Shown one piece after another: positions 3,032 through 17,610 of a stretch of DNA of 64,000 bases. The position numbers were made by a program, and so were the translations under genes. The notes under the pieces were generated by a model that saw nothing but the letters and a program-made list of their open reading frames with translations, was not told the DNA's origin and did not search any database. Within the stretch, counting starts at the first letter, position 1, and each line of letters opens with the position of its first letter. Origin of the DNA: Bryobacterales bacterium (GTDB lineage Bacteria > Acidobacteriota > Terriglobia > Bryobacterales > Bryobacteraceae); the NCBI GenBank assembly GCA_963710565.1, contig CAVQAN010000009.1, forward strand, positions 756,965 through 820,964, in the 5' to 3' direction.

Positions 3032-3037
3032 TGCGCG

Positions 3038-3514
3038 GTGACATTTCATGTCGGCCAGACTTTTCTGTATCCTCTCGACGAAGCCAAAGAAGAGCACCTG
3101 TGGGTCATAGCCACAGAGCCGAATGCAGATGGACTGTTTGCAACCGTGAGCTTCACATCCCTTAGGGGATCTAAGGATCAAACCGTGGTTCTCCTGGCTG
3201 GAGAGCACCCATTTATCAAATGGCCTACCTGTGTCGCATATGCCGCCACGGAGATAAGCAGTTGTAAGAACCTACAGGCCCGTCTGGAATGTGGGTTGGC
3301 GAAGATGCATCGGGACGCCAGCCCACAATTGCTGGAACTCGTTCAGGACGGTTTCTTGGCATCTGACCTAACGAAGAATCGTGTCCGAGAGTTTATTCGG
3401 GCCTACAGGGCCGCGAGGCAACCCCGAGCCCTCGCCGATCCCGCCGACTGGCAGTGGGTGCGCGACATGCGCGGTCCCATTCTGAGTCTCTGTGTCGCGG
3501 GTGGCCTTCATTAG
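3038..3514 (+). CDS. Hypothetical 158-aa protein, candidate cognate toxin of the Panacea-domain protein
   Basis: ORF starts 7 nt after the stop of 2471..3031. Same low-GC islet. No recognisable motif. Confidence 0.4.
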   Translation: MTFHVGQTFLYPLDEAKEEHLWVIATEPNADGLFATVSFTSLRGSKDQTVVLLAGEHPFIKWPTCVAYAATEISSCKNLQARLECGLAKMHRDASPQLLELVQDGFLASDLTKNRVREFIRAYRAARQPRALADPADWQWVRDMRGPILSLCVAGGLH

Positions 3515-3522
3515 CGGGAGAC

Positions 3523-3556
3523 GCAAGCGGCCTGTCCCGGGTCCGCTTTCTTCTGA
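3523..3556 (+). terminator. Candidate intrinsic terminator after the Panacea cassette
   Basis: gcaagcgg(cctgtcccgggt)ccgcttt stem-loop followed by cttctg. T-tract is weak. Confidence 0.3.
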
Positions 3557-3689
3557 ACCGTGTGGGCCTTCATCCGCGTTCATCTGCGTTCATCTGCGGC
3601 CAGTTTCAGTTCGCGTTTTCTCAACCCACGGGGACGCCGCAGCGGGCGCGAAGCGGAGACGGCGCTTGGCCCGGGCATCGATTCCCCAG

Positions 3690-3775
3690 AGGGCAGACCT
3701 TGGGACAGGATCGAAGTTTCGCAAGAGCGGCGAAATTCGATCCAGTCCCCGGTTCGCGGCTTGCGGTATAGGTAG
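3690..3775. repeat. Copy A (core only, most divergent) of a ~80-150 bp intergenic MITE/REP-like repeat family
   Basis: …gggacaggatcgaagtttcgcaagagcggcgaaattcgatccagtccccggttcgcggcttgcgg… shares the ~75-bp core with copies at ~10125, ~11497 and ~16672. Ends 8 nt before the GH5 start codon. Confidence 0.6.
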
Positions 3776-3782
3776 ATGTATC

Positions 3783-4820
3783 ATGCCAATCCGATTCCTT
3801 GTCCTGCTCGCGGCCGCGAGCGCGTTGGTGGCGCAGACGGCCGCTCCCGAGAAACCGGCGCACCGCTGGTGGACGGACCGGTCTCCTGGGACGAGGCCGT
3901 ACACCACCGGCGCCAAGAAGATGCCACTGATCTCGGTCAAGGGGAACAAGTTCGTCGATGCGGCGGGCAACACGGTGCTGTTCCGCGGGCTGGCCATTGC
4001 CGACCCGGACAAGCTGGATATGGACGGCCATTGGAACCGGGAACACTTCGTCAAGGTGAAAGAGATGGGCACGCGCGTGGTGCGCATCCCGGTGCATCCG
4101 GTGGCGTGGCGGGAGCGGACGCCGGCGGAGTACATCAAACTGCTGGACCAGGCGGTGGACTGGTGCACGGAGCTGGAGATGTATATCGACCTGGACTGGC
4201 ACTCGATCGGCAACCTGCCGCGGGGGTTGTTTCAGGACCCGATGTACGATACCTCTGCGCAGGAGACGTTCGGGTTCTGGCGCACGATGGCGCGGCACTA
4301 CGCCGGGCACAACACGGTGGCGTTCTTCGAGCTGTTCAACGAGCCGAGCACGTTCTACAACAAGCTGGGGCCGGTGTCCTGGGAGGAGTGGAAGAAGATC
4401 AACGAAGACCTGATCACCCTGATCCGGGCGTACAACGCGCAGGCGATTCCGCTGGTGGCGGGGTTCGACTGGGCGTACGATCTGACGCCGCTGCGGCTGA
4501 GCCCGATCGCGGCGGAGGGCATCGGGTACTCGGTCCATCCGTACGCCAACAAGCGGCCGCAGCCGTGGGAGGGGCGGTGGGAGGAGGATTTCGGGTTCGC
4601 GGCGGCGAAGTATCCGGTGGTGGCGACCGAGTTCGGCGGGTTCCCGGCGCAGTCGCCCTTCGGACCGGCGATCATCAAGTACCTGGAGGGCAAGGGCATC
4701 AGTTGGATCGCCTGGTGCTTCGACCCGGAATGGGGGCCGACGCTCATCGGGGACTGGAAGTACACGCTGAATCCGTCGGGAGAGTTCGTCAAACTGGCGA
4801 TGCACGGGGGCGTGCAGTAG
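3783..4820 (+). CDS. Glycoside hydrolase family 5 endoglucanase (cellulase), secreted
   Basis: Start MPIRFLVLLAAASALVAQTAA (signal peptide) is residue 98 of ORF 3492..4820. GH5 acid/base motif ELFNEP and nucleophile region VVATEFGG present. Confidence 0.8.
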   Translation: MPIRFLVLLAAASALVAQTAAPEKPAHRWWTDRSPGTRPYTTGAKKMPLISVKGNKFVDAAGNTVLFRGLAIADPDKLDMDGHWNREHFVKVKEMGTRVVRIPVHPVAWRERTPAEYIKLLDQAVDWCTELEMYIDLDWHSIGNLPRGLFQDPMYDTSAQETFGFWRTMARHYAGHNTVAFFELFNEPSTFYNKLGPVSWEEWKKINEDLITLIRAYNAQAIPLVAGFDWAYDLTPLRLSPIAAEGIGYSVHPYANKRPQPWEGRWEEDFGFAAAKYPVVATEFGGFPAQSPFGPAIIKYLEGKGISWIAWCFDPEWGPTLIGDWKYTLNPSGEFVKLAMHGGVQ

Positions 4821-4980
4821 GCGCGCGGCGGCCCACTCCGACACCGGGAAAGGCCGCCCAAACAGCCCTGGCACTCCTTCGAACTCACGGAGCCAGCGGC
4901 CTTTAGTTGAGCCCACACCGGTATTCTGTTATGCTCTGTGTTGGGTTTCCCAACGATTCTTCTTCCTACCAGAGGTTCGC

Positions 4981-5730
4981 ATGTCAGGCCATTCAAAATG
5001 GGCGACGATCAAGCATAAGAAAGCCGCCACGGACGCCAAGCGCGGAAAGGCCTTCACGCGCGTTATCAAAGAGATCTCGATTGCCGCCCGCAGCGGCGGC
5101 GGCGACCCGGATGCGAATCCGCGCCTGCGAACGGCCGTCCTGGCAGCCAAGGCGGTGTCGATGCCCGCCGACAACATCAAGCGCGCCATACAGCGCGGCA
5201 CCGGCGAACTGGAAGGCGGGCAGATCGACGAAGTGATGTTCGAAGGCTACGGGCCCGGCGGCACCGCCGTCCTGGTCGAGGTCGCCACCGACAACCGCAA
5301 CCGGACCGTGAGCGAAATCCGGCACCTCTTCACCAAGTACGCCGGCAAGCTGGGGGAACAGGGCAGCGTGTCGCGCCTGTTCGTGCGCAAGAGCCAGGTC
5401 CTGATCCCAGTGGAGAAAACCACGGAGGAGAAACTGATGGACACGGCGCTCGACGCGGGCGTCGAAGACATCCGCAACGACGGCGTCAACTGGGAGATCG
5501 TCTCGCCGCCGGAAGCGCACCTGCCCGTGCTCGAAGCGCTGCACAAGGCCGGCATACAGCCCGCCGAATCCCAGATCGCCATGATTCCCATCATCCTGGT
5601 GAAGCTCGAGGGCAAAGACGCCGGAACCATGCTGAAGCTGAGCGAGGCGCTCGAGGAGCACGAGGACGTGCAGAACGTCTACGCCAACTTCGATATCGAC
5701 GAACACGTCATGGAGGCCCTGGCACTCTAA
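4981..5730 (+). CDS. yebC: YebC/PmpR family DNA-binding transcriptional regulator
   Basis: [32 protein letters not shown]… canonical YebC N-terminus, 249 aa. Conserved pairing with ruvC. Confidence 0.9.
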
Positions 5731-5744
5731 GCGCCAGGCGGCCC

Positions 5745-6236
5745 ATGCGGGTTCTGGGCATAGACTGCGGGACGGAACGAACCGGCTACGGCATCATCGA
5801 GAGCGATGGCCGGAGCCATCAATTGATTTCGACCGGAGTGATCGTCACCAGCCCCAAGCAGCCTATGCATCTGCGCCTGGTTCGGATTGCCGCCAGTCTG
5901 CGGGCCCTGATTTGCGACCATCGCCCCGCCGCGGCCGCCGTCGAGGAAGTCTTTTACGCGGCCAACGTGCGCACGGTTCTGAAGCTATCGCAGGTTCGGG
6001 GCGTGGCGCTTCTGACCATCGCGGAAGCGGGCCTGGAGCTGGGCGAGTACTCGCCGCTCGAGATCAAGACCAGCGTGGTGGGCTACGGCCGGGCCGAGAA
6101 AGCGCAGGTCCAAATGATGGTGCGGTCCCTGTTGCAGCTCGACCGCGAAATTGAATCCGAGGACGCCGCCGACGCGCTGGCGGTCGCCATCTGCCACGCC
6201 ACGCGAGCGGCCGTGGAACGGGAGCTGGCACGGTGA
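5745..6236 (+). CDS. ruvC: Crossover junction endodeoxyribonuclease RuvC
   Basis: [19 protein letters not shown]… 163 aa, RuvC fold signature. Confidence 0.9.
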
Positions 6237-6868
6237 AGCTCCCGGCCGCGCTTCTCCTCACCGCCGCATCCGCCCTGCTGGCCGCCGACGTGCCCAAAAT
6301 CACGTACACCAAGTCGTTCCCCGGCAGTACTCCGGACTACGTCGAAGCCAGCGTGGACAAGGAAGGGCACGTGGTGTACCGGGAAGGCAAGACCGACGAC
6401 AGCCCGATGGAATTTCAGCTCGCGCCCGCGGAAACCGAGGCGATCTTCGACCTGGCCGCGAAGCTCGACCACTTCACCAAGCCGCTCGAGTCCCCCCTCA
6501 AGGTCGCCTTCATGGGCGACAAAACCTTCCGCTGGGAGAACGGCAGCGAGAAGCACGAGGTGAAGTTCAACTACTCGGCGCACCTCGAGGCCCAGCAGCT
6601 CTGGGAGTGGTTCGAGCGCATCGGCGAAACCGAACAGCGGTTCGCAGTCCTCGACAGCGCGACCCACTTCGACAAACTCGGCGTCAACCAGGCGCTGCTC
6701 GACCTGGAAACCTCGTTCGACCGCAAGCGCCTGGTGGCGCTGGCGCAGTTCCTGCCGCTGCTGGACCGGATCGCGGGGAGCGAGCGCTACATGCACATGG
6801 CGCGGGAGCGGGCCGCGGCGCTGGCCGACACGATCCGCAATCCGCCGCCCAAGGCGCAGGGACAATGA
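6233..6868 (+). CDS. Hypothetical secreted protein, translationally coupled between ruvC and deoB
   Basis: Signal peptide [20 protein letters not shown]. 4-nt overlaps with ruvC stop and deoB start. No known domain recognised. Confidence 0.5.
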
Positions 6869-8037
6869 CGCTCCCGCGCCGCATCGTGCTGCTCATCCTC
6901 GACAGCGTGGGGATCGGTGAGATGCCGGACGCCGCCGAGTACGGAGACGCGGGCAGCGACACGCTGGGGCACATCGCCGCCAGCCGGCCCCTGCGTCTGC
7001 CGAACCTGTGCGCCCTCGGGCTGGCGAACATCCGGCCGTTCGCGAACCTGGCGCCGGCCGCCGCGCCAATCGGCTGCTACGGCAAGTGCGCGCTCGCCTC
7101 CCCAGGCAAGGACACCACGACCGGGCACTGGGAGATCGCGGGCATCCACCTCGAGAAGCCCTTCCCGCTTTATCCCCACGGATTCCCGCCCGAGGTGCTG
7201 GGCGAGTTCGAGCGGCAGGTGGGCCGGCGGGCGCTGGGCAATTGCCCCGCCTCGGGCACCGAGATCATCGAGCGGCTCGGCGCGGAGCACCTGCGCACGG
7301 GCTCGCCCATCGTCTACACTTCGGCCGACAGCGTGTTTCAGATCGCCGCGCACGAAGAGATCATTCCGCTCGCGGAGCTCTACCGGATGTGCGAAATCGC
7401 GCGCGGGATCCTGCGCGGCCCGCACGAGGTGGGGCGCGTCATCGCGCGGCCGTTTGGGGGCAGCCCGGGGGCGTTTGTGCGCGACGGCGCGGCGCGGCAC
7501 GATTACGCGGTGCCCCCGCCGCCGGGCATGCTTCTCGACCGGCTGGCCGAGCGGGGCGTGCCGGTGTGGTCAGCGTGGGCAAGATTGCCGAATGTTTCTG
7601 CGCCGCGGCGTCACGCATTCGGCCAAGACCCAGGACAACGCCGACGGCATGCGGCGAACTCTGGAGGCCATGGGCGAGCGGAGCGCGGGCTGATCTTCAC
7701 CAACCTGGTCGATTTCGACATGCTGTACGGGCATCGCAACGACGTTGAAGGCTACGCCGCGGCGCTCGAAGCCACCGACGCCTGGCTGCCGGAACTCCTG
7801 GCCGGGCTCGGCGACGGCGATCTGCTGATGGTGACCGCCGATCACGGCAACGATCCCACTACGCCCTCGACGGACCACAGCCGCGAGTACGTGCCGCTGC
7901 TGGTTTATGGCCCCCGCGCGCGGCGGGGCCGCGACCTGGGCACCCGCGGCACGCTCTCCGATATCGGGCAGACCGTGGCCGAGAATTTTGAAACTCATCT
8001 TGAGAAAGGAACTAGTTTTCTAGAGAAGATCTTATGA
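6865..8037 (+). CDS. deoB: Phosphopentomutase DeoB, with three local 1-2 bp indels near 7568-7695
   Basis: [38 protein letters not shown]…[16 protein letters not shown]…[23 protein letters not shown]…[24 protein letters not shown] matches DeoB. The conserved segment [49 protein letters not shown] is split across all three frames (+2, -1, -1). Confidence 0.8.
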
Positions 8038-8778
8038 GAACACCATTGATGGCGGGCAACTGGAAAATGTACAAGACGGCCCAGGAAACCCGCGCTTTCT
8101 TCGAGAAATTCGGCCCGCTGGTGGCCGAGGGCCGGGGACGTCGTGCTTTGTCCCACCTTCCCCAACCTGCCGGCGGCGGTCGAGGCCACCGCGGGAACGC
8201 GCATCGGCATCGGCGCTCAGAACCTGTTCTGGAAGAACGAAGGCGCGTACACGGGCGAGGTGTCCGCCCCCATGCTCACAGCGGTAGGCGTTAAGTGGGT
8301 CATCATCGGTCACAGCGAGCGGCGCCAGTATTTCGGCGAGACCGACGAGACGGTTCTGAAGAAGACCGTGGCGGCAATCCTGGCCGGGCTGAACCCGATC
8401 GTGTGCGTGGGCGAGCGGCTGGAAGAGCGCGAATCGGGCAACACCGAGGCCGTGCTCGCGAAGCAGTTCGGGGACGGCATCGCCAAGCTGACGCCCGAGC
8501 AGTTCGCGAAGATCGTCGTCGCCTACGAGCCGGTGTGGGCCATTGGCACGGGCAAGACGGCGACACCCGAGATCGCCTCCGAAGCGCACCGCTTCATCCG
8601 CGCGCTGGCCGAAGCGGCGTTCGGCCCGGCCGCGGCCTCCAGCCTGCGGATTCTGTACGGCGGCAGCGTCAAGCCCGACAACACCGCGAGCCTCATGGCC
8701 AAGCAAGACATCGACGGCGCGCTGGTGGGCGGCGCGAGCCTGACGCCGGATTCGTTTGCGGCGATCGTGAACTTCTGA
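8034..8778 (+). CDS. tpiA: Triosephosphate isomerase, with a 1-bp homopolymer indel near 8135
   Basis: [15 protein letters not shown]… then a frame switch to …[15 protein letters not shown]…[14 protein letters not shown]…[18 protein letters not shown]…LYGGSV. Both halves are TIM. The indel is in a gggg run. Confidence 0.85.
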
Positions 8779-8801
8779 GGCGCAGTCGTCGCGGGCGCCG
8801 G

Positions 8802-9119
8802 CTATTCCTCTGTAAACAGATGAATCCCGTCCGTCTTGTGCGGGCGGGATTCGAGATAGACGCCGGCGGCGAGGCTCGCCGCGGCGAGCGCGAGCATGGT
8901 GGCGCCTACCAGGTCCAGGCCACGGATCCAGAGGATGGCGCCCAGCGACACCACGGTGCGCAGCAGCCACGTTAAGGCCCTTGTCATGGGCTGGCCGGCG
9001 TTGTGGAGGCGGGTGGCGGCGCGGCCCAGCGCGTAGGCGAAGAACATCGCCAGCAGCCCGAGCAGGACCCGCAGGAACTGGATCGGAAACGGCGATCTCA
9101 CCCCTCCAATTTGGGCCAA
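8802..9119 (-). CDS. Hypothetical small membrane protein (2-3 predicted TM helices)
   Basis: ORF 105 aa, hydrophobic segments LRVLLGLLAMFFAYALG and TVVSLGAILWIRGL. No homolog recognised. Overlaps the tpiA hairpin. Confidence 0.3.
   Translation of the reverse strand: MAQIGGVRSPFPIQFLRVLLGLLAMFFAYALGRAATRLHNAGQPMTRALTWLLRTVVSLGAILWIRGLDLVGATMLALAAASLAAGVYLESRPHKTDGIHLFTEE
8821..8854 (+). terminator. Candidate hairpin terminator downstream of tpiA
   Basis: gaatcccgtccg-tcttgtgc-gggcgggattc: 11-bp stem with one G-U pair. No clear T-tract. Confidence 0.25.
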
Positions 9120-9220
9120 ACCGTTGCGGATTGCAAGGGCCGCGCTGCCCCGCTGCCAGACCCGGCGTTACACTGGTCTTGAAAGGGCCCATCTTGCACC
9201 AGCACCAGCACGCCAACGAC

Positions 9221-10105
9221 ATGGGAAGAGTCCTGGTCTGGTCCCTGGCCGGAACCCTGCTGTTCGTCATGGTGGAGGCCGCCGCGGGCATCCACGCGCA
9301 CAGCCTTTCGCTGCTCTCCGACGCCGCCCACAACTTCACCGACGCCTTGGCGCTACTGCTGGCGTGGCTCGCGGTCTTCTTCGGACGCAAGCCGGCGGAT
9401 AGCGTCAAGACCTACGGCTATCACCGCGCCGGCGTCCTGGCCGCCTTCGTCAACGCTCTCTCGCTGCTGATTCTGGCCGGCTACATCGTCTTCGAAAGCT
9501 ACCAGCGCTGGCTGCGCCCGCAGGCGGTGGGCGAGATGACCATGCTGGTGGTGGCGGCGGGCGGCGTCCTGGTCAACGGCGCGATCATGTGGGGCCTGCG
9601 CATGGAGCGCGGCCGTGACGTCAACATCCGCAGCGCCTGGGCTCACATGCTGGGCGACGCGCTGGGCTCGCTGGCGATTGTGGCCGGCGCGGTGGCGATT
9701 CATTACACCGGCTGGCAGCGCACGGATCCCTTGCTGTCCGGCCTGATCGGGCTGCTGATCGTGTGGACCGCCTGGGACGTCGTCAAGGAGACGCTCAACA
9801 TCCTCCTGGAGGGCCTGCCGCGCGGGCTGGAACTGGAACAGGTGACCTCGGCCATGCGCGGCGTTCCCGACGTTCTCGACGTCCACGACGTGCACATCTG
9901 GAGCCTGGGATCGAGCACGCACGCGCTGAGTTGCCATGTGCTGATCGACGACCTGCCGCTCTCGGAAAGCGATTCGATCCTGCAGAGCCTCAACGAAGTG
10001 CTCTTGGAACGTTTCCGCATACAGCACACCACCGTGCAATTCGAGTATGTCAACTGCCCGGGCTGCCCCATCCCCAACGGGCAGCGCCACGCTCACGAGG
10101 CATAG
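9221..10105 (+). CDS. Cation diffusion facilitator family metal efflux transporter (CzcD-like)
   Basis: …HSLSLLSDAAHNFTDALALLLAW…GYHRAGVLAAFVNA…AWAHMLGDALGSLAIV…DVHDVHIW… typical CDF motifs. Start assigned to MGRVLVW (residue 81 of ORF 8981..10105). A His-rich LHQHQH stretch just upstream could belong to the protein via an alternative start. Confidence 0.75.
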   Translation: MGRVLVWSLAGTLLFVMVEAAAGIHAHSLSLLSDAAHNFTDALALLLAWLAVFFGRKPADSVKTYGYHRAGVLAAFVNALSLLILAGYIVFESYQRWLRPQAVGEMTMLVVAAGGVLVNGAIMWGLRMERGRDVNIRSAWAHMLGDALGSLAIVAGAVAIHYTGWQRTDPLLSGLIGLLIVWTAWDVVKETLNILLEGLPRGLELEQVTSAMRGVPDVLDVHDVHIWSLGSSTHALSCHVLIDDLPLSESDSILQSLNEVLLERFRIQHTTVQFEYVNCPGCPIPNGQRHAHEA

Positions 10106-10124
10106 CGTGACGATTCCGCACACG

Positions 10125-10275
10125 AGTGTAGTGCGTCGCCAGCCATGCGAAGCACGATTATCCAAGGGCAAACCCTGGGACAGGCACGAAGTTTCGCAAC
10201 AACGGCGAAATTCGAGCCAGTCCCCGGTTTGCGGCTCGTTCCGATACCCGACGGCATTTGCGACGCACCACGTTA
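10125..10275. repeat. Copy B (full length, with terminal inverted repeats) of the MITE/REP-like intergenic repeat
   Basis: tagtgcgtcgc…ccaagggcaaaccctgggacaggcacgaagtttcgcaacaacggcgaaattcgagccagtccccggtttgcggctcgttccgatacc…gcgacgcacca. Ends are inverted complements. Near-identical to copy D. Confidence 0.65.
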
Positions 10276-10323
10276 GGAGTGTTCAGCAGCCCCTAAGACG
10301 GACGCCACGGGCGGGGGGCTAAC

Positions 10324-11469
10324 GTGCATACGCTGGCCGGGATCCTCAGCGGCGCGGTCATTCTCATCGTCCTTTGGGACGCCTTCGAGACGATCATCCT
10401 GCCGCGCCGCGTCACGCGCAGGATCCGGCTGACCTCGGGGTTCTACCGCCTCACCTGGCGCCCCTGGTCCGCCATGGCGCGGCGCATCCGCCGCCCGCGC
10501 CGGACCGAGGCGGTGCTGAGCTACTTTGGCCCGCTCTCGGTGCTGCTCCTGCTGACGGTCTGGACGGTGGGCATGATCTTCGCTTTCGCCGGCCTGCACT
10601 GGGCTATCGGGACCCGGTTGGTCTCGCCCGACAGGCACCCGGATTTCTGGACCTACCTCTACATGAGCGGCACGGATTACTTCACGCTGGGTCTGGGCGA
10701 CGTGACCGCCGCCGCGGGCCCGGGACGGGCGCTGACGGTATTCGAGGCCGGGCTGGGATTCGGATTCCTGGCCATCGTGATCGGATACTTCCCGGTGCTT
10801 TACCAGGCGTTTTCGCGCCGCGAAGTGAACATCGTGCTGCTCGACGCGCGCGCCGGGTCGCCTTCAAGCGCGCTCGAGCTGCTGCGGCATTTCAGTGAAA
10901 CGGGCGCCCTGGGCCAGCTCGATCTCTCGCTGCACGACGCCGAGCGCTGGACGGCGGAGCTGCTCGAGAGCCACATCTCCTATCCCGTGCTGAGCCACTT
11001 CCGCTCGCAGCACGACAACCAATCCTGGCTGGGGGCGACCACCACCATCCTGGATGCCTGCGCGCTGGTGATGGCCGGCATCCGCGAAATCCCTCCGCGC
11101 CAGGCGCAGCTCACCTTCGCGATGGCGCGCCACGCGGTGGTGGACATCGCGCAGATTCTGCGCAGAGCGCCGCGGGCGCCGGAACCGGACCGTCTGCCGC
11201 CCACGGCGTTCCGCCGCCTGCAGGGGGAGTTGGCGGCCGTTGGCCTGCACCTCGCGGACGGCGACGAGACCGTGGCCCGCCTGGCCCAGTTGCGCAGCCT
11301 CTACGAGCCGTACGTCAACGCGCTATCTCAGTACCTCGCGATGCGGCTGCCGGAATGGGCGCCGGAGCGCCGGGCCGTGCATAACTGGGAGACGAGCGCG
11401 TGGGGCCGCGCCACGGGGGCAGCGTCCAAAGCGGCTACCTGTCAGAGGGCGGAAGACGATCATGGGTAG
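10324..11469 (+). CDS. Ion-channel-like membrane protein (two-TM pore-loop family, filter-like TLGLGDV)
   Basis: 381 aa. N-terminal TM helices and pore-loop-like YFTLGLGDVTAAAGPGRALTVFEAGLGFGFLAIVIGYF. Cytoplasmic C-terminal half of unknown function. Confidence 0.5.
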   Translation: MHTLAGILSGAVILIVLWDAFETIILPRRVTRRIRLTSGFYRLTWRPWSAMARRIRRPRRTEAVLSYFGPLSVLLLLTVWTVGMIFAFAGLHWAIGTRLVSPDRHPDFWTYLYMSGTDYFTLGLGDVTAAAGPGRALTVFEAGLGFGFLAIVIGYFPVLYQAFSRREVNIVLLDARAGSPSSALELLRHFSETGALGQLDLSLHDAERWTAELLESHISYPVLSHFRSQHDNQSWLGATTTILDACALVMAGIREIPPRQAQLTFAMARHAVVDIAQILRRAPRAPEPDRLPPTAFRRLQGELAAVGLHLADGDETVARLAQLRSLYEPYVNALSQYLAMRLPEWAPERRAVHNWETSAWGRATGAASKAATCQRAEDDHG

Positions 11470-11496
11470 GGGCGGGGCCCCACGGCCCGAAGGCCC

Positions 11497-11580
11497 CCCA
11501 ACAACAGGCACGAAGTTTCGCAACCACGGCGAAATTCGAGCCAGTCCCCGGTTTGCAGCTCGTTCCGATACCGGACGACG
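11497..11580. repeat. Copy C (core + right arm) of the MITE/REP-like intergenic repeat
   Basis: …caggcacgaagtttcgcaaccacggcgaaattcgagccagtccccggtttgcagctcgttccgataccggacg… lies between the convergent channel-like gene and trpB2. Confidence 0.6.
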
Positions 11581-11616
11581 CTAATCTACAGAGCGCTTGA
11601 TCTTGCCGGCGGCTTG

Positions 11617-12999
11617 CTACGCCGGCAGCGTCTCCATGGCCTCGGCGATTTCGGCGCCGGGATGCTCGTAGTCCTGCAAGCGGCCGCTAAGATAGGCGTC
11701 GTAGGAAGCCAGGTCGAAGTGGCCGTGGCCGCTCAGAAGGAACAGAATGGTGCGCGGCTTTCCCTCTTCGCGGGCCAGGATTGCCTCGTCGATGGCCGCG
11801 CGGATGGCGTGGGCGGATTCGGGCGCGGGCAGAATGCCCTCCAGCCGAGCGAACTGCACCGCCGCCTCGAAGGTGGGCAATTGCAGGCAGGACCGGGCCT
11901 CGATCAAGCCGTTGGCGAGCAGGTTGCTGGCCAGCGGGGAAGCGCCGTGGTAGCGCAATCCGCCGGCGTGAATGCCGGGCGGGACGAAATCGTGGCCGAG
12001 CGTGTACATCTTGAGAAGCGGCGTGAGCTTGGCGATGTCGCCGAAATCGTAGGTGTAGCGTCCCCTGGTCAGAGTGGGGCAGGCCGCCGGCTCGACGGCT
12101 TGCAGACGGACCTTGGAGCCGGCCAGCTTGTCCGGAATATAGGGCAGCGCCAGCCCGCCGAAATTACTGCCGCCGCCGAAGCAGCCGATCAGGACGTCAG
12201 GCTCGTCGCCGGCGAGCGTCATCTGCTTCCTGGCCTCGACGCCGATGACTGTCTGATGCAGGAGCACGTGGTTGAGCACGCTGCCGAGAGCGTAGTTGGT
12301 GTCGTCGTGGGTGGCAGCGTCCTCGACCGCCTCGCTGATGGCGATGCCGAGGCTGCCGGGCGAATCCGGATGCGCGGCCAGAACGGCCCGGCCGGAGTTG
12401 GTGCGCGGGCTGGGGCTGGGAAAGACCTCCGCGCCCCAGGTGTTCATCATCATGCGGCGATAGGGCTTCTGCTCGTAGCTGACCTTGACCATGTAGACCG
12501 TGCACTCGAGGCCGAACATCTGGCAGGCGAGCGCGAGCGCGCTACCCCACTGCCCCGCCCCGGTCTCGGTGGCCAGCCGCTTGATGCCCGCCTGCTTGTT
12601 GTAGAAGGCTTGCGCCACCGCGGTATTGGGCTTGTGGCTGCCCGCCGGACTGACGCCTTCGTACTTGTAGTAAATGCGCGCGGGGGTATCGAGCGCTTTC
12701 TCGAGGCGCTCGGCGCGGTAGAGCGGCGTCGGCCGCCAGAGCTTGTAGATGTCGAGCACTTCGCCCGGAATATCGATCTCCGGTTGGGGGGCAAACTCCT
12801 GCTGGATGAGCGCCATGGGGAAGATCGCCGCCAGCGCTTCGGGCCCGATGGGCTGACGCGTCGCGGGATTGAGCGGCGGATCGAGCGGCTGCTTGAGCAA
12901 GGGCAGGACGTTCACCCAGGCGGTCGGGATCTCATTGTCGGTAAGAATGAACTTCGTAATGTCGGCCACGCGGTCTCCTTCAAAACGGAATTCGACCAT
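11617..12999 (-). CDS. trpB: Tryptophan synthase beta chain type 2 (TrpB2, PLP-dependent)
   Basis: 460 aa, …[67 protein letters not shown]… Characteristic long TrpB2 form, intact frame. Confidence 0.85.
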
Positions 13000-13089
13000 T
13001 GTAACCCGTCACGGACCGTCAGGGGGGCTGCTGAGACTGGCTGGTACCCCTCGTCCGCGTCTGGGATTCGGGGCGCGCTATCCTGAACC

Positions 13090-14814
13090 ATGCGTTGGAG
13101 CCAACTTCTCATCCCCACCTTGCGGGAGGAGCCGGCGGAGGCGGAGGCCGTCAGCCATCGGCTGCTGTTGCGGGCGGGCTATATTCGCCCGCTGGCGGCG
13201 GGGGTGTACAGCTACCTGTTCCTGGCGCAGCGCTCGCTGAACAAGATCGTCGCGATCGTGCGCCAGGAGATGGACGCCATCGGCGCGCAGGAATTCCTGC
13301 TGCCTGCGCTGCACCCTGCCGAGCTGTGGCAGGAGACGGGCCGCTGGCAGAGCATGGAGCACGACCTGTTCCGGCTCAAGGACCGCAACGGCCGCCAGAT
13401 GTGCCTGGGGATGACCGCGGAAGAAGTCATGACCGCGATCGCGCGCACCGAACTGCGGAGCTACAAGCAGCTCCCGCAGATCTGGTATCAGATCCAGACC
13501 AAGTTTCGCGACGAGCCCCGGCCGCGCTCGGGGCTGATGCGGATGCGGCAGTTCCTGATGAAGGATTCCTACACCTTCGACATGGACGCCGCGGGGCTCG
13601 ATGCGGCTTACCGCAAGCATTACGAGGCCTACGGCCGCATCTTCCGCCGCTGCGGGCTCGAGTTCCTGGCGGTGGAAGCCGATTCGGGAGCGATGGGGGG
13701 CAGCCAGTCGCGCGAGTTCATGGTGAAGTCCGAGGCCGGCGAGGACTGGGTGGTGACCTGCGACCAGTGCGGTTACGCGGCAAACCTAGAGAAGGCCGTC
13801 TCGAGCGCTACGGCTCCGGCGCGTTTCGATCCGGCGGGCGAAGTGACGCCCGAATCCTTCCTCACGCCGGGCATCAAGACCATCGAGCAACTGACGGAGT
13901 TCACGGGCCACCCCGGAAGCTCGTTCATCAAGAGCCTGGTGCTGGTGGCTGACGGCCAGCCCGTGCTGGCGCTGGTGCGCGGCGACCACCAGTTGAACGA
14001 GACCAAGTTCCGGCAGGCAACGGGCGCGCGAGAGTTCCGCGCGGCGCGTCCGGAAGAGATCGTGGGCTGGTTCGGGGCCGCAGCGGGCTCGCTCGGTCCG
14101 GTGGGCGTCAGCGGGATGAGCATACTCGCCGATGAGGCGCTGCGCGGCCGGAAGAACATGATCAGCGGCGCGAACAAGGACGGCCAGCACCTGCGCGGCG
14201 TGACGCCGGGTGAGGACTTCCGGGCGGAGTACCGCGATCTGCGGCAGGCCGCGGCAGGAGACGCGTGCGTGCGGTGCTCGAGCCCGCTGGCGCTCGGCAA
14301 AGCCATCGAGGTCGGACACATCTTCAAGCTCGGCACGCGCTACTCGAGCCCCATGGGATTGCGGGTGCAGAACGCCGCGGGCGAGGAGTGCACTCCGGCG
14401 ATGGGCTCCTACGGGATCGGCATCGAGCGCATCCTGAGTTCCGCGGTGGAGCTGTACAACGATGCGGACGGGATCCTGCTGCCGGCGGCCATCGCGCCCT
14501 TCCAGGCAGTCATTACGCCGGTGAACATTGGAGACGAGACGCAGCGCCAGGCCGCGATGGGGATCTACGAGAGCTGCCGGACGCTGGGTGTGGACGCGCT
14601 GTTCGACGACCGGGACGAGCGGCCGGGGGTCAAGTTCAAGGACGCGGACCTGATCGGCGTGCCCTACCGCATCGTGATCGGCAAGAAGCTCGCGCAGGGG
14701 CTGGTGGAACTGGTGGAGCGCCGTGGACGGCGGAAGTCCGACGTCGAGGCCATGGGCGCGGCGCGAAACGTGGCCGAGAGGGTGGCGGCGGACATCGCGG
14801 GGCCGGACGCGTGA
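13090..14814 (+). CDS. proS: Proline--tRNA ligase (bacterial type with editing domain)
   Basis: 574 aa, MRWSQLLIPTLREEPAEAE…RLLLRAGYIRPLAAGVYSYL…FRDEPRPRSGLMRMRQFLMKDSYTF… class II aaRS motifs, intact. Confidence 0.9.
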   Translation: MRWSQLLIPTLREEPAEAEAVSHRLLLRAGYIRPLAAGVYSYLFLAQRSLNKIVAIVRQEMDAIGAQEFLLPALHPAELWQETGRWQSMEHDLFRLKDRNGRQMCLGMTAEEVMTAIARTELRSYKQLPQIWYQIQTKFRDEPRPRSGLMRMRQFLMKDSYTFDMDAAGLDAAYRKHYEAYGRIFRRCGLEFLAVEADSGAMGGSQSREFMVKSEAGEDWVVTCDQCGYAANLEKAVSSATAPARFDPAGEVTPESFLTPGIKTIEQLTEFTGHPGSSFIKSLVLVADGQPVLALVRGDHQLNETKFRQATGAREFRAARPEEIVGWFGAAAGSLGPVGVSGMSILADEALRGRKNMISGANKDGQHLRGVTPGEDFRAEYRDLRQAAAGDACVRCSSPLALGKAIEVGHIFKLGTRYSSPMGLRVQNAAGEECTPAMGSYGIGIERILSSAVELYNDADGILLPAAIAPFQAVITPVNIGDETQRQAAMGIYESCRTLGVDALFDDRDERPGVKFKDADLIGVPYRIVIGKKLAQGLVELVERRGRRKSDVEAMGAARNVAERVAADIAGPDA

Positions 14815-14875
14815 ATGTCGGGGAACTGCGGCGGGGCCTGGCGGGCTACCTGAAACGCGGGCTCGAGGTGGCGCC

Positions 14876-15484
14876 CTAGCGCCCCATCAGCACCCGCCGA
14901 CCCTGGATCCGAAACTCCCCGGAGAGCACGATGCGGATGGCCTCGGTGTAGGCCTGGTGCTCCTGCTCCAGGATGCGCGCCGCGAGCGTCTCCTCGGTGT
15001 CTTCGTCGAAGACGGGGACCGCGCGCTGGATGACGATCGGACCGGCATCGAGGAGCTCGTCCACGAAATGCACCGTGCAGCCGCTGATCTTCACGCCGTG
15101 CTCGAGCGCCTGGTGCTGCGCTTCCAGGCCCGGAAACGACGGCAGCAGCGAAGGGTGAATGTTCAGGATGCGCAGCGGAAACTCGCGCACGAAGTAGGCG
15201 CTGAGCAGCCGCATGTAACCGGCCAGGCAAACCAGATCCACCGCGCACTTGCGCAGCTCGGCGACCACCATGCGGTCGTAGACTTCGCGGTCCAGGCCCT
15301 TGGAGGGAATCGAAGACCGCGTTCAGACCGCGCGGCCGCGGGCGATTTCGAGGCCGCGAGCGTCCGGCCGGTTCGAGATGACGACGGCGATTTCGGCGTC
15401 GATGCGGCCGGCCTCGACGCTGTCGGCGATGGCTTCGAAGTTCGAGCCGCGTCCCGAGAGCAGGATTCCGAGCCGCTTCTTCAT
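14876..15484 (-). CDS. purN: Phosphoribosylglycinamide formyltransferase PurN, with an apparent frameshift near 15300
   Basis: N-terminus [50 protein letters not shown] lies in ORF 15323..15547. C-terminal part …NIHPSLLPSFPGLEAQHQALEHGVKISGCTVHFVDELLDAGPIVIQ… lies in ORF 14876..15271. ATGA overlap with the purM stop. Confidence 0.8.
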
Positions 15485-16529
15485 AGGTAGACCACCCGCG
15501 TCTTCGAGCCGCGCTTGAGGGGAACGACGCGGCCGATTTCGTAGCACGGCTCGCCCAGGCCGTCGAGCAGCTTCCTGGCGCGCGCCAGGTTACGTTGCGC
15601 CACCACCAGGATCATGCCGATGCCAAGGTTGAAGGTGCGGCGGTAGTCGTCATCGGGAATGTTGCCGAGACGCCGCAGCAACTCGAAGATGGGCGGCACC
15701 GGCCACGCCGCCGTCTGGACTTCGATCGCCACGCGGCGTGGCAGGATGCGCGGCGTGTTGCCGGTGATCCCGCCGCCGGTGATGTGCGCCGCGCCCTTCG
15801 AGCAGGCCTTTGGCCGCGAGCGCCTGAAGGGGCCGCAAGTAGCTGCGGTGGACCTTGAGCAACTCATCGCCGACCGTGCCGCCGAGCTCCGGCAGATAGG
15901 TGTTGACGCCGTAGCCGGCCACCTCGAGCAGCAGCTTGCGGGCCAGGGAGTACCCGTTGGTGTGCAGGCCGGTCGAGGGCAGGCCGAGCAGTACGTCGCC
16001 GGCGCAGATCGTCGTGCCGTTGAGCATGCGGTTGCGTTCGACGGCGCCGACGATGAAGCCGGCCAAGTCATATTCGCCCGCGGCGTAGAGGCCCGGCATC
16101 TCCGCGGTTTCTCCGCCGATCAGCGCACAGCCGTTTTCGCGGCAGGCGTGCGCCAGGCCGGAGACGACCTGGCGCGCCACTTCCGCATCGAGCTTCCCCG
16201 TGGCGTAGTAATCGAGAAAGAAGAGCGGCTTCGCGCCCAGCACGCCGATGTCGTTCACGCAGTGGTTCACCAGGTCCTGGCCAACGGTATCGTGGCGGCC
16301 GGCGGCGAAAGCGATCTTGAGTTTAGTGCCCACGCCGTCGGCCGAGCTGATCAGGACCGGTTTCTTCCATCCGGAAAGCTGGAAACCGGCGCCGAAGGCG
16401 CCGATATCGGTAAGCACGCCTCGCGGTGAAGGTAGCGCGCGCGAGTCGCTTGATGTGATCCACGGCGCGGTCGGCCTCGTCGATATCGACGCCGGCGTCT
16501 CTATAGCGCACTGATTTTGGGAATGCCAT
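15481..16529 (-). CDS. purM: Phosphoribosylformylglycinamidine cyclo-ligase PurM, with at least 2 apparent frameshifts
   Basis: [27 protein letters not shown] (ORF 16323..16529). Then …[32 protein letters not shown]…[10 protein letters not shown]… (ORF 15650..16663). Then …[17 protein letters not shown]…[11 protein letters not shown]… (ORF 15481..16071). All are PurM segments in different frames. Confidence 0.8.
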
Positions 16530-16671
16530 CGTCGGAACCTACAGTATAGCCGGGAAACGCGGCCGGGCCGCGACATCGAACGGTCTCGGCTGTAAGTGGG
16601 GTGTGCCGAGGCGGGTGCGGAGACCCGCCGGGGCCGCGGACGGCTTCCCACGGCGCCGGCCAAGCTTTACA

Positions 16672-16823
16672 CTTGTAGTGCGTCGCAAGTCATGCGAAGT
16701 ACGACTATCCAAGGGCAAACCCTGGAACAGGCACGAAGTTTCGCAACAACGGCGAAATTCGAGCTAGTCCCCGGTTTGCATCTCGTTCCGATACCAACCA
16801 CATTTGCGACGCACCACTTTAGC
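16672..16823. repeat. Copy D (full length, with terminal inverted repeats) of the MITE/REP-like intergenic repeat
   Basis: tgtagtgcgtcgcaagtcatgcgaagtacgactatccaagggcaaaccctggaacaggcacgaagtttcgcaacaacggcgaaattcgagctagtccccggtttgcatctcgttccgataccaaccacatttgcgacgcaccac. Sits in the divergent purM/dtd intergenic region. Confidence 0.65.
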
Positions 16824-16827
16824 TCAT

Positions 16828-17307
16828 ATGCGCGTTGTCATTCAGCGAGTCAGCCGGGCGCGGGTTGTAGTGGATGGGAAGACCGCCGGAACGATCGGGT
16901 CCGGCCTGGTCGTACTCCTGGGCGTCGGCAAGCACGATACCCGCACGGATGCGGACTATCTGGCGGACAAAGTCACCGGGCTGCGTGTCTTCCCCGACGA
17001 GGCGGGCAAAATGAACCTCAGCGTGATCGAGACCGGAGGCGCGCTGCTGATTGTGTCGCAGTTCACTCTGTACGGCGACTGCCGGAGGGGCCGCCGGCCG
17101 GGATTCGACATGGCCGCGCCGGCGGAGGAGGCCCGCGCTCTATATGAGTACTTCGTCGAAGCGTGCCGCAACAGGGGAGTGCCGGTGGAGACCGGTATCT
17201 TCCAGGCATCGATGGCGGTCGAGCTTACCAACGACGGGCCGGTAACTATTATCTGTGAGTCGGAGAAAGCGCGATATCGCAGTAAGTATTCCTATGCTAT
17301 CGTGTAG
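16828..17307 (+). CDS. dtd: D-aminoacyl-tRNA deacylase
   Basis: [34 protein letters not shown]…[31 protein letters not shown]…TNDGPVT. Classic Dtd; start is residue 9 of ORF 16804..17307. Confidence 0.85.
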
Positions 17308-17319
17308 TGGGGGTGAACT

Positions 17320-17610
17320 ATGCCGAGACACAAGACCGTGCAGAATTCCGAGTTGTTGACAAGCGGCGCTCGAGGGGCTGGAAGCGCAGAAGAAGCGGAT
17401 CGAGGAGCAGATTGGCCAGGTTCAGGCCATGCTCGGCCGGCGCCGGGGACGTCCGCCCGCGTCCGCGGCAGCCGCGCCCGCCGCGGAGAAGCCCGCCGGC
17501 ACGAGGAAACTGAGCGCCGCCGCTCGCAAGAGGATCGCCGCCGCCCAGAAACGGCGCTGGGCGGAGTACCGCAAGAAGGCAGAAGCCGAAGGAGTAGCAA
17601 AGTCAGTTCT
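17320..17610 (+). CDS. Small basic coiled-coil / KR-rich protein (possible nucleoid- or DNA-binding), reading frame uncertain
   Basis: MPRHKTVQNSELL… then in the +1 frame …LEGLEAQKKRIEEQIGQVQAMLGRRRGRPPASAAAAPAAEKPAGTRKLSAAARKRIAAAQKRRWAEYRKKAEAE. Looks protein-like but is split over two frames. 3' end undefined; it overlaps the antisense of the VWA gene. Confidence 0.25.

What the first reader, a model, noticed from the sequence alone, without database searches (positions are those of the whole stretch)
10125..10275. Four-copy intergenic MITE/REP-like repeat family with terminal inverted repeats (copies at ~3690, ~10125, ~11497, ~16672)
A ~75-bp core (ggacaggcacgaagtttcgcaacaacggcgaaattcgagccagtccccggtttgcggctcgttccgatacc) occurs four times within 13 kb, always intergenic. 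Two copies (10125..10275, 16672..16823) are full length at ~150 bp with matching left arms (tccaagggcaaaccctgg) and terminal inverted repeats (tagtgcgtcgc … gcgacgcacca). The other two are truncated cores.

The copies sit in varied contexts: 8 nt upstream of the GH5 start, between convergent genes, and in a divergent promoter region. Small size, TIRs, no coding capacity and multiple dispersed copies fit a miniature inverted-repeat transposable element or a structured REP-like element. The core can form an imperfect hairpin (cgaaguuucgc/gcgaaauucg), so a small structured RNA is an alternative
Basis: seen in the sequence. Interest (0 to 1): 0.55.

Follow-up and report, generated by a model that had tools for sequence, protein, structure and literature searches.

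The report
REPIN-like palindromic repeat of Bryobacterales
The four repeats are copies of a small non-coding hairpin-forming mobile DNA element that is scattered through the genomes of soil and peat Acidobacteria (Bryobacterales); its core looks like two back-to-back copies of the end sequences that flank a class of single-strand-DNA transposase genes, so it is an uncatalogued member of a known kind of element.

Summary
There are four same-strand, intergenic copies: 3679-3763, 10122-10280, 11504-11578 and 16670-16824. Two are ~155-nt palindromes with 17-nt inverted ends.

The family is not local. One exact-pattern scan hit more than 104 stretches in 32 Bryobacterales genomes, 140 copies in the DNA fetched. 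No Rfam family matches.

The conserved unit is a ~70-75-nt hairpin. Eleven of its 30 pairs change on both sides, against 3.6 in shuffles. Outer arms are optional.

Copies lie mostly just after stop codons. Five relatives (80-91% identical K-channel protein) have the two flanking genes abutting where the window carries a 217-nt insertion, so it is inserted DNA.

Each half of the core (GCAAAnnGGGGACAGGCACGAAGTTTCGC) resembles the inverted repeats that flank RAYT-like Y1 (IS200/IS605-type) transposase genes. These are the "TIRtrons" with the GGGGWSAS motif (PMC3733652). In 22-24 of 80 such genes I fetched, these repeats sit about 50-70 nt before the start codon and just after the stop.

Best reading: a REPIN-like dimer of transposase end repeats, moved in trans. 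The cognate transposase was not found, so this step is inferred.

A classical DDE-type MITE and a structured RNA are less likely. It is a new member of a known kind, of moderate interest.

The parts
10122..10280 (+). Full-length copy 2 (the finding): a ~155-nt imperfect palindrome
   Evidence: nhmmer profile positions 6-164, E 3e-42. It folds as one long hairpin: -60.6 kcal/mol on the plus strand and -76.2 on the minus strand, z -4.1 and -7.0.
10123..10139 (+). Left inverted end of copy 2, CGAGTGTAGTGCGTCGC (family consensus CTAGTGTAGTGCGGCGC)
   Evidence: Sequence; family alignment.
10166..10235 (+). Core hairpin of copy 2: two inverted half-sites, GGGCAAACCCTGGGACAGGCACGAAGTTTCGC and GCGAAATTCGAGCCAGTCCCCGGTTTGCGGC, around the 7-nt loop AACAACG
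   Evidence: Covariation on 46 family members: 11 of 30 pairs change on both sides against 3.6 in shuffles, 0/500.
10260..10276 (+). Right inverted end of copy 2, GCGACGCACCACGTTAG
   Evidence: Sequence.
10106..10322 (+). The whole 217-nt segment that is absent from five relatives, where the CDF-transporter stop TAG is followed after 1 nt by the K-channel start. It holds copy 2 plus 16 nt (left) and about 45 nt (right) of unrelated DNA. It is bounded by a CGTG direct repeat (10106-10109 and 10323-10326).
   Evidence: Alignment with L105 and L107. Gene tables of L105-L113 show CDF and K-channel genes abutting.
16670..16824 (+). Full-length copy 4, between purM (minus strand) and dtd (plus strand). 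Its right end is 5 nt before the dtd ATG at 16828. Core at 16713-16783.
   Evidence: nhmmer profile positions 7-162, E 1.5e-38. Fold -51.1 / -68.2 kcal/mol. ORFs.
11504..11578 (+). Truncated copy 3 (profile positions 64-138) between the convergent K-channel and PALP-enzyme genes. It is preceded by an unrelated GC-rich hairpin (11470-11500).
   Evidence: In relatives this spacer holds different DNA, including small ORFs.
3679..3763 (+). Core-only copy 1 (profile positions 39-122), 19 nt upstream of the GH5 start ATG 3783. It carries a compensatory variant of the middle stem (GGATCGAA/TTCGATCC).

Best explanation
The repeats are copies of a non-autonomous palindromic mobile element of the REP/REPIN class, specific to Bryobacterales (Acidobacteriota).

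Its conserved unit is a ~70-75-nt hairpin made of two inverted half-sites: GCAAA-nn-GGGGACAGGCACGAAG-TTTCGC, a 7-nt loop, then GCGAAA-TTCGAGCCAGTCCCC-nn-TTTGC. Each half-site resembles the terminal inverted repeat that flanks RAYT-like Y1 (HUH, IS200/IS605-superfamily) transposase genes. These are the 'TIRtrons' of Di Nocera et al. 2013, whose repeats share the motif GGGGWSAS. The core therefore looks like such a gene unit with the gene deleted, that is, a head-to-head dimer of its end repeats.

In the longer form the core is embedded in a ~155-nt palindrome whose ends read (C/G)TAG-TGTAGTGCGGCGC.

Proposed mechanism: a chromosomal Y1 transposase encoded elsewhere recognises the folded single-stranded hairpin and cuts and rejoins it, so copies spread in trans. 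The hairpin carries conserved mismatches (A.A, A.A, T.C) and a bulged G. Copies survive mainly just downstream of stop codons, where a strong hairpin is tolerated. Old copies lose their arms but keep the core.

Shown here:
- family membership and spread;
- a hairpin maintained by compensatory changes;
- insertion polymorphism;
- a bias towards 3' ends of genes;
- specific resemblance of the half-site to repeats flanking Y1 genes.

Inferred:
- that a Y1 transposase moves it;
- that the substrate is single-stranded DNA;
- any effect on transcripts.
For: (1) Spread. A profile finds 140 distinct copies in 823 kb from 32 genomes plus the window, with at least 41 in one MAG.

(2) Hairpin. On 46 diverse cores, 86% of cells pair. 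Eleven pairs change on both sides against 3.6 in shuffles (0/500) and 3-5 in slid controls. Whole-stem swaps occur in L004 (CAGTGCCC/GGGGACTG) and SbA3 (CCAGGC/GCCTGG).

(3) Mobility. CDF and K-channel genes abut in L105-L113, from five relatives with 80-91% identical K-channel protein. No copy is found anywhere in those 7-17-kb syntenic loci, whereas the window has a 217-nt insertion there.

(4) Old copies also exist, occupying orthologous sites in genomes 78-88% identical. In one pair the core is 68/70 identical while the flanks are 87.6% identical.

(5) Position. Convergent gene pairs account for 35/110 copies. Stop codons typically lie 0-40 nt from the element (crude gene calls).

(6) Link to Y1 genes. 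PMC3733652 reports RAYT-like genes flanked by inverted repeats with GGGGWSAS, an Acidobacteria-specific group of them, and dispersed or dimeric families of such repeats. The core's left half contains GGGGACAG.

Of 80 Y1-gene loci fetched with Bryobacterales Y1 proteins, 24 have an inverted pair of A-rich + GGGGACAG 35-mers around the gene, against 0.66 in shuffles. At a stricter cut the counts are 22 against 0.

In an unbiased blastn-short of 170 half-core variants against 299 kb of Y1 loci, 10 of 13 hits fall on those flanking repeats: 7 lie 48-68 nt before the start on the + strand, and 3 lie downstream on the - strand. Examples:
- L143, AAAATCGGGGACAGGCT, 17/17 on both sides of the gene;
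- L164, AAAACCGGGGACAGACGGAACGTTTCC;
- L142, AACCGGGGACAGACGGGAAGTTTCCC.

The element profile's only two weak hits in these loci lie directly beside Y1 genes.

(7) Tandem arrays and partial duplications of cores (L026, L073, L020, L004) resemble REP clusters.
Against: - No Y1 gene flanked by the exact half-site (GGGGACAGGCACGAAGTTTCGC) was found.
- The window has no Y1 gene.
- The Y1 genes seen in Bryobacterales DNA carry related but different repeat subtypes, GGGGACAGACGCATTTT or GGGGACAGGCTACGC (L002, L068, L194, L196; L198's organism was not identified). None has a copy of the element beside it.
- The match between half-site and flanking repeat is short (14-17 nt exact, about 21/28 overall).
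- Y1 transposases of the IS200/IS605 type make no target duplication, yet the one clean window junction shows a 4-nt CGTG repeat and carries extra non-element DNA.
- The outer arms with CTAG-bounded 17-nt inverted ends are not explained by the dimer model. They look like ordinary MITE ends.
- The core was the search key, so 'the core is always present' is partly by construction.
Confidence: 0.55

Rival explanations
1. A classical MITE. On this reading it is a deletion derivative of a DDE-transposase insertion sequence (for example IS630- or IS5-like, both of which favour CTAG/TA targets). It would be mobilised through its 17-nt terminal inverted repeats, and core-only copies would be decayed remnants.
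For: Full-length copies have good 17-nt inverted ends, each bounded by CTAG. The size is about 155 nt with no coding capacity. A 4-nt direct repeat (CGTG) bounds the window insertion. Copy number differs greatly between genomes.
Against: - About 43% of copies keep the left arm and only about 16% the complete right arm. In one MAG most copies share the same left arm but stop at GCCGATACACG on the right. This is hard to square with transposition that depends on both ends.
- Core-only copies end sharply at the hairpin base.
- There is no duplication outside CTAG in about 12 full copies.
- The window insertion carries 16 + 45 nt of foreign DNA.
- Almost no orphan ends, and no pair of ends enclosing a gene, were seen in 823 kb.
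- The centre, not the ends, is the most conserved part and carries the Y1-type motif.
Confidence: 0.2
2. A host-functional structured element that only looks mobile. Candidates are a transcribed hairpin acting as a (bidirectional) terminator or mRNA 3'-end stabiliser, or a multicopy small RNA, kept by selection at each site.
For: The hairpin is supported by covariation. The core is flanked by an A-run and a T-run (GCAAAA...TTTTGC) like a bidirectional terminator. Copies are enriched right after stop codons and between convergent genes. The core is far better conserved than neighbouring coding DNA across 32 species. The window copies fold better as minus-strand RNA.
Against: - No Rfam family matches at gathering or permissive thresholds.
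- The terminator scan does not flag the window copies, which have only 3 T.
- Copies lie in both orientations relative to the upstream gene.
- Strand preference in folding is not general: 11 against 7 full-length copies.
- Sites next to housekeeping genes are occupied in the window but empty in five close relatives.
- Tandem arrays, nested insertions and partial duplications are behaviour typical of selfish repeats.

This reading does not exclude the best explanation: mobile hairpins can be co-opted.
Confidence: 0.2
3. A repeat spread by recombination or gene conversion rather than by a dedicated enzyme. Copies would be pasted together with bits of donor flank through microhomology.
For: The window insertion contains non-element DNA on both sides and is bounded by only 4 nt of microhomology. 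Copy 3 replaces ancestral DNA rather than adding to it. Copies within a genome are more alike than copies between genomes: inner arms 0.84 against 0.67 identity.
Against: This does not explain more than 100 dispersed copies with sharp, reproducible limits, nor the specific resemblance to repeats flanking Y1 genes. The extra flanks match nothing else in the data.
Confidence: 0.05

Closest known systems
TIRtrons / TIR-repeat families associated with TIRYT tyrosine transposases (Di Nocera et al. 2013, PMC3733652; e.g. Koribacter versatilis ORF1552, Stenotrophomonas maltophilia)
   Same: Both involve RAYT-like Y1 genes flanked by inverted repeats that carry GGGGWSAS. The repeats also occur as dispersed families, often as dimers or clusters, and an Acidobacteria-specific group of such transposases is described. 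The core half-site carries GGGGACAG preceded by an A-run, as do the repeats flanking 22-24 of 80 Y1 genes examined.
   Different: The cognate gene with the same repeat was not found. This family has a fixed head-to-head dimer with a 7-nt loop and, in part of the copies, extra ~40-nt arms ending in CTAG-bounded inverted repeats. The host order (Bryobacterales) and the sequence are not in that paper.
REPINs and REP sequences mobilised by RAYTs (Pseudomonas, E. coli)
   Same: Two inverted units form a long hairpin. Both show tens to hundreds of extragenic copies, a preference for the 3' sides of genes, clusters, conserved mismatches in the stem, long persistence with occupied orthologous sites, and proposed mobilisation in trans by a single-copy Y1 transposase (PMC3733652 text).
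   Different: REP units are 20-40 nt with a GTAG head. Here the units are about 30 nt with GGGGACAG. A GTAG appears only in the optional outer ends and not in all genomes. RAYT adjacency, the defining feature, is not shown.
Long palindromic MITEs of other bacteria: Correia/NEMIS (Neisseria), ERIC/IRU (enterobacteria), RUP, SMAG
   Same: All are 100-160-nt imperfect palindromes that are intergenic and fold into long hairpins. They are often co-transcribed and can sit next to start codons or split operons (my own knowledge of these families; anatomy).
   Different: No sequence similarity. Those families have defined target duplications (e.g. TA for Correia) and depend on their ends. Here the centre is the conserved module and the ends are dispensable.
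IS200/IS605-derived miniature elements (PATEs)
   Same: Non-coding derivatives that keep the hairpin ends recognised by a Y1 transposase, with asymmetric ends and no need for terminal inverted repeats (my own knowledge).
   Different: PATEs keep distinct left and right subterminal hairpins and insert next to a fixed tetra- or pentanucleotide. No such fixed target was seen here.

Membership tests
REP/REPIN-RAYT systems (including TIRtron/TIR-repeat systems) | Short, non-coding, extragenic palindromic repeat present in many copies per genome | tested here: met
   140 copies in 823 kb from 32 genomes, with at least 41 in one MAG. The window copies are all intergenic.
REP/REPIN-RAYT systems (including TIRtron/TIR-repeat systems) | The unit is a pair of inverted repeats that folds into a hairpin, with pairing maintained in evolution | tested here: met
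   Folds with z -4 to -7. Eleven of 30 pairs change on both sides against 3.6 in shuffles, 0/500.
REP/REPIN-RAYT systems (including TIRtron/TIR-repeat systems) | Repeat carries the signature seen next to the transposase gene (GTAG head for REPs; GGGGWSAS for TIRYT repeats) | tested here: met
   GGGGACAG fits GGGGWSAS. In 15 of the 46 family cores aligned the left half reads GGGGACAG; in most of the others, and in the family consensus, it reads GGGTACAG. The window copies read TGGGACAG or TGGAACAG. A GTAG occurs only in the outer ends of some genomes, so that part is inconclusive.
REP/REPIN-RAYT systems (including TIRtron/TIR-repeat systems) | A RAYT/TIRYT gene in the same genome flanked by copies of the same repeat | tested here: inconclusive
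   There is no Y1 gene in the window. Y1 genes in Bryobacterales DNA (L002, L068, L194, L196; L198's organism was not identified) are flanked by related but different subtypes, and the element profile finds nothing beside them. Complete genomes could not be searched.
REP/REPIN-RAYT systems (including TIRtron/TIR-repeat systems) | Transposase binds or cleaves the single-stranded hairpin | not testable with these tools
   Needs biochemistry.
MITE derived from a DDE-transposase IS | Terminal inverted repeats on all active copies | tested here: not met
   Both ends are present in about 16% of copies. A left-arm-only form dominates in one MAG, and core-only copies have sharp limits.
MITE derived from a DDE-transposase IS | Target-site duplication of fixed length | tested here: inconclusive
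   Full copies end in CTAG on both sides, with nothing repeated beyond it. The one empty-site comparison gives a CGTG repeat, but around a segment larger than the element.
MITE derived from a DDE-transposase IS | Autonomous IS with the same ends | tested here: inconclusive
   A search for the ends with up to 3 mismatches in 823 kb found 8 orphan matches, none enclosing a transposase gene. Only DNA near cores was sampled.
Described RNA families (Rfam 15) | Match to a covariance model at or near the gathering score | tested here: not met
   No hits in the window at gathering thresholds. Only chance-level hits (E > 5) with permissive settings on 10080-10320.
Canonical intrinsic terminator | GC-rich hairpin followed by a T-run | tested here: not met
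   None of the four copies is flagged in 3000-17500. The window cores are followed by GGTTTGC only, while other genomes have up to TTTTT.

The most novel reading that the evidence does not exclude
Bryobacterales may harbour a long-lived REPIN-like population whose unit is a composite. The inner part is a dimer of TIRYT-type end repeats. The optional outer palindrome has (C/G)TAG-tagged ends. The element would be maintained by an as yet unidentified domesticated Y1 transposase and would be inserting often enough to split translationally coupled genes, as with the CDF-transporter/K-channel pair here.

This would extend the REPIN-RAYT 'intragenomic symbiont' model to Acidobacteria. It would also offer a case where the element acts as a mobile hairpin or terminator that reshapes operons.
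Probability: 0.35. Interest if true: 0.55.

Novelty: new member of a known kind. Interest (0 to 1): 0.38.

Why it matters
Small palindromic repeats are badly catalogued outside Proteobacteria. This family is abundant in an ecologically dominant, mostly uncultured soil and peat lineage, and it is absent from Rfam and from the literature searched.

Uses if the reading holds:
- It gives annotators a model to mask spurious ORFs and to explain variable intergenic regions.
- It marks sites where coupled genes were pulled apart by a hairpin of -60 to -77 kcal/mol (CDF transporter | K channel), or where a hairpin sits 5-19 nt before a start codon (dtd, GH5). These are testable effects on expression.
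- It provides a concrete substrate for studying the large, uncharacterised TIRYT branch of Y1 transposases.

It does not reveal a new kind of system.

Tried and rejected
- Rfam at gathering and permissive thresholds found nothing.
- The idea that the minus strand is the functional RNA strand came from the window copies folding 15-17 kcal/mol better on that strand. It was rejected because the family shows 11 against 7 full copies, and the core differs by only 1.4 kcal/mol.
- The canonical terminator scan did not flag the copies.
- A search for an autonomous IS through orphan or paired ends in the fetched loci found nothing convincing.
- Clustering all ORFs near copies to find a recurrent neighbour gene found no enriched family.
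- tblastn with remembered E. coli RAYT and IS200 TnpA sequences led to Y1 genes in L002 and L068. These are 7 kb and 4 kb from the nearest copy, and the element profile finds nothing in their flanks.
- I looked up five Y1 genes or gene sets hoping for the cognate one (L002-like, L143-like, P0289, P0319, P0293). All have related but different flanking repeats.
- Exact-protein look-ups of window proteins (Dtd, PALP, YebC, and the 100% K-channel hit P0001) are not on record, so the window's own genome could not be read further.
- Apparent orthologous sites in L053, L016 and L099 turned out to have different synteny.
- The extra DNA carried by the window insertion matches nothing else.
- A literature search for the sequence itself found nothing.

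Full report
**Observation.** The repeat finder adds the fourth, more diverged copy (family D2: 3690, 10165, 11489, 16712). A profile HMM built from related copies sets these limits, all on the + strand: 10122-10280 and 16670-16824 (full length), 11504-11578 and 3679-3763 (partial). It finds nothing else in the 64 kb.

The two full copies have 17-nt inverted ends (10123-10139 with 10260-10276; 16670-16686 with 16806-16822). Each folds into a single long hairpin, z -4 to -7 against shuffles.

**Gene context.** The neighbours are ordinary chromosomal genes: a SocA/Panacea-domain gene, GH5, YebC, RuvC, a metalloenzyme, TIM, a CDF transporter, a K channel, a PLP enzyme, ProRS, PurN, PurM and Dtd. 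All four copies are intergenic.

- GH5 starts at ATG 3783, so copy 1 ends 19 nt before it.
- The right end of copy 4 lies 5 nt before the dtd ATG at 16828.

**The family.** All are in Bryobacterales, Bryobacteraceae or Solibacteraceae MAGs from peat and soil. In the 823 kb fetched, the profile finds 140 distinct copies from 32 genomes plus the window. Per genome the count reaches at least 41. Rfam 15 has no match at gathering or permissive thresholds. The sequence does not occur in the paper library.

**Anatomy.** The consensus is CTAGTGTAGTGCGGCGC-(about 30 nt)-GGGCAAACCGGG(G/T)ACAGGCACGAAGTTTCGC-AAnnnCG-GCGAAATTCGAGCCAGTCCCCGnTTTGC-(about 25 nt)-GCGCCGCACTACACTAG.
- The left arm is kept in about 43% of copies.
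- The complete right arm is kept in about 16%.
- Many copies are the bare core, with limits that cluster sharply at the base of the hairpin (profile positions 47/48 and 119-123).
- In one MAG most copies share the left arm but stop at GCCGATACACG on the right.
- Cores also occur in tandem arrays and as partial duplications (L026, L073, L020, L004).
- Full copies end in CTAG on both sides, with no further duplication.

**Structure.** I tested my 30-pair hairpin on 46 diverse cores aligned without gaps. It has 86% of cells paired. Eleven pairs change on both sides, against 3.6 in shuffles (0/500) and 3-5 when the partner is slid.

Three mismatches (T.C, A.A, A.A) and a bulged G are themselves conserved. 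The two halves therefore keep distinct identities.

The better folding of the minus strand in the window copies is not a family trait: 11 against 7 full copies. Nothing therefore points to one transcribed strand.

**Position.** I used a crude GC3-based gene caller. Relative to the element's orientation, the flanking genes are arranged as follows:

| Arrangement of flanking genes | Copies |
|---|---|
| Convergent | 35 |
| Co-directional | 38 + 23 |
| Divergent | 14 |

Stop codons typically lie within 0-40 nt of the element. This is the 3'-end bias known for REPs.

**Mobility.** Homologues of the window's K channel were looked up in their contigs. In five relatives (80-91% identical protein; L105-L113) the CDF stop codon TAG is followed after one base by the K-channel start. 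No copy of the element is detectable anywhere in these 7-17-kb syntenic loci.

The window instead carries 217 extra nt (10106-10322). This segment is copy 2 plus 16 and about 45 nt of DNA that matches nothing else, bounded by a CGTG direct repeat.

The K-channel/PLP-enzyme spacer is also rebuilt. DNA that in relatives holds small ORFs is replaced by a GC hairpin plus truncated copy 3.

In contrast, three pairs of other genomes 78-88% identical share occupied sites. In one pair the core is 68/70 identical while the flanks are 87.6% identical, and arm content differs between the two. The family therefore has both old and recent insertions.

Copies within a genome are more alike than copies between genomes.

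**What moves it.** No gene family recurs next to copies. The window has no Y1 transposase.

The lead came from Di Nocera et al. 2013 (PMC3733652). They report:
- RAYT-like tyrosine transposase genes that are flanked not by REPs but by longer inverted repeats sharing GGGGWSAS ('TIRtrons', 'TIRYT');
- an Acidobacteria-specific group of these transposases;
- such repeats forming dispersed families, often as dimers.

The left half of the core contains GGGGACAG.

I fetched 80 loci encoding relatives of two Bryobacterales Y1 proteins (L002:209-937, Pfam Y1_Tnp E 4.6e-10; and L068). In 24 of them (22 at a stricter cut) the gene is bracketed by an inverted pair of A-rich + GGGGACAG 35-mers. The upstream one lies about 50-70 nt before the start and the downstream one just after the stop. 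Shuffles give 0.66 and 0.

In an unbiased blastn-short of 170 half-core variants against all 299 kb of Y1 loci, 10 of 13 hits fall exactly on these flanking repeats, in the expected orientation. Examples: L143 is 17/17 on both sides, L164 reads AAAACCGGGGACAG..., and L142 reads AACCGGGGACAGACGGGAAGTTTCCC. The element profile's only weak hits in those loci are also directly beside Y1 genes.

The core thus has the layout of such a gene unit with the gene removed: left repeat, 7-nt loop, right repeat. In other words, it is REPIN-like.

**What is missing.** The cognate gene was not found. The Y1 genes I could read in Bryobacterales DNA have related subtypes, GGGGACAGACGCATTTT or GGGGACAGGCTACGC (L002, L068, L194, L196; L198's organism was not identified). 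None has a copy of this element beside it. My scans and look-ups were then exhausted. The outer arms and the CGTG repeat at the one clean junction are not explained by a Y1 mechanism.

**Verdict.** The finding is real, and the element is certainly a dispersed, insertion-polymorphic palindromic repeat.
- Most likely (about 0.55) it is a REPIN-like dimer of TIRYT-type end repeats, moved in trans by a Y1 transposase.
- A DDE-type MITE (about 0.2) and a primarily host-functional RNA or terminator hairpin (about 0.2, and not exclusive of the first) remain possible.

It is a new, uncatalogued member of a known kind. Interest is moderate, mainly as a handle on the uncharacterised TIRYT branch and on operon disruption in Acidobacteria.

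Noticed in passing
window 34900-57700 (minus strand): Very large genes built from tandem repeats with periods of 384 nt and 168 nt (repeat families D1-D20). They are probably NHL/beta-propeller-type and Ig-like repeat proteins and dominate the second half of the window.
   Followed up: no
window 14876-16663 (minus strand): purM is split over two reading frames (15650-16663 with AIRS and the start of AIRS_C; 15481-16071 with the rest of AIRS_C). purN is represented only by a 131-aa ORF covering the C-terminal part of the domain. These are frameshifts, either pseudogenes or indel errors of a long-read assembly, so small indels between repeat copies should be read with care.
   Followed up: partly
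L018, L079, L002, L052 (one MAG, JAIQFU01): Copies in this genome are often flanked on both sides by inverted heptamer microsatellites, (TAGTCGC)n on the left and (GCGACTA)n on the right, as if the CTAG-containing ends had expanded symmetrically.
   Followed up: no
L007:5628-5790: A different palindromic repeat (GGCCACGGATGAACACGGATAA...TTATCCGTGTTTATCCGTG...) is nested inside the left arm of a copy. At L100:4224 another palindrome family begins with the same head, CTATTGTAGTGCGGCAC. These genomes hold several families of such repeats.
   Followed up: no
L026:2546-2952, L073:1300-1610, L020:1576-1973, L004:6241-7303: Tandem arrays of 3-7 cores or whole units with periods of 62/86, 86, 153 and 161 nt, including half-cores. 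They resemble REP clusters (BIMEs).
   Followed up: partly
L068:1354-2300: A Y1 transposase gene with an in-frame TAG (HLW*NRF, where relatives have Q). It is bracketed by a perfect 17-bp inverted repeat, CCGTGACAGGCTACGTG, and followed by an ACGGGTTTGGTT tandem repeat.
   Followed up: partly
window 11470-11617 versus L105:9147-9432 and L110:5147-5755: The K-channel/PLP-enzyme spacer is hypervariable among relatives. Some hold one or two small ORFs (73 and 85 aa, no Pfam), one holds another long palindrome (L112), and the window holds a GC hairpin plus the truncated repeat.
   Followed up: partly
window 2471-3514: A SocA/Panacea antitoxin-domain gene (2471-3031) is followed by an unannotated 158-aa ORF (3038-3514). 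This may be a toxin-antitoxin pair, lying just upstream of copy 1 and of a GH5 gene that is absent from the syntenic region of relatives (L105, L107).
   Followed up: no
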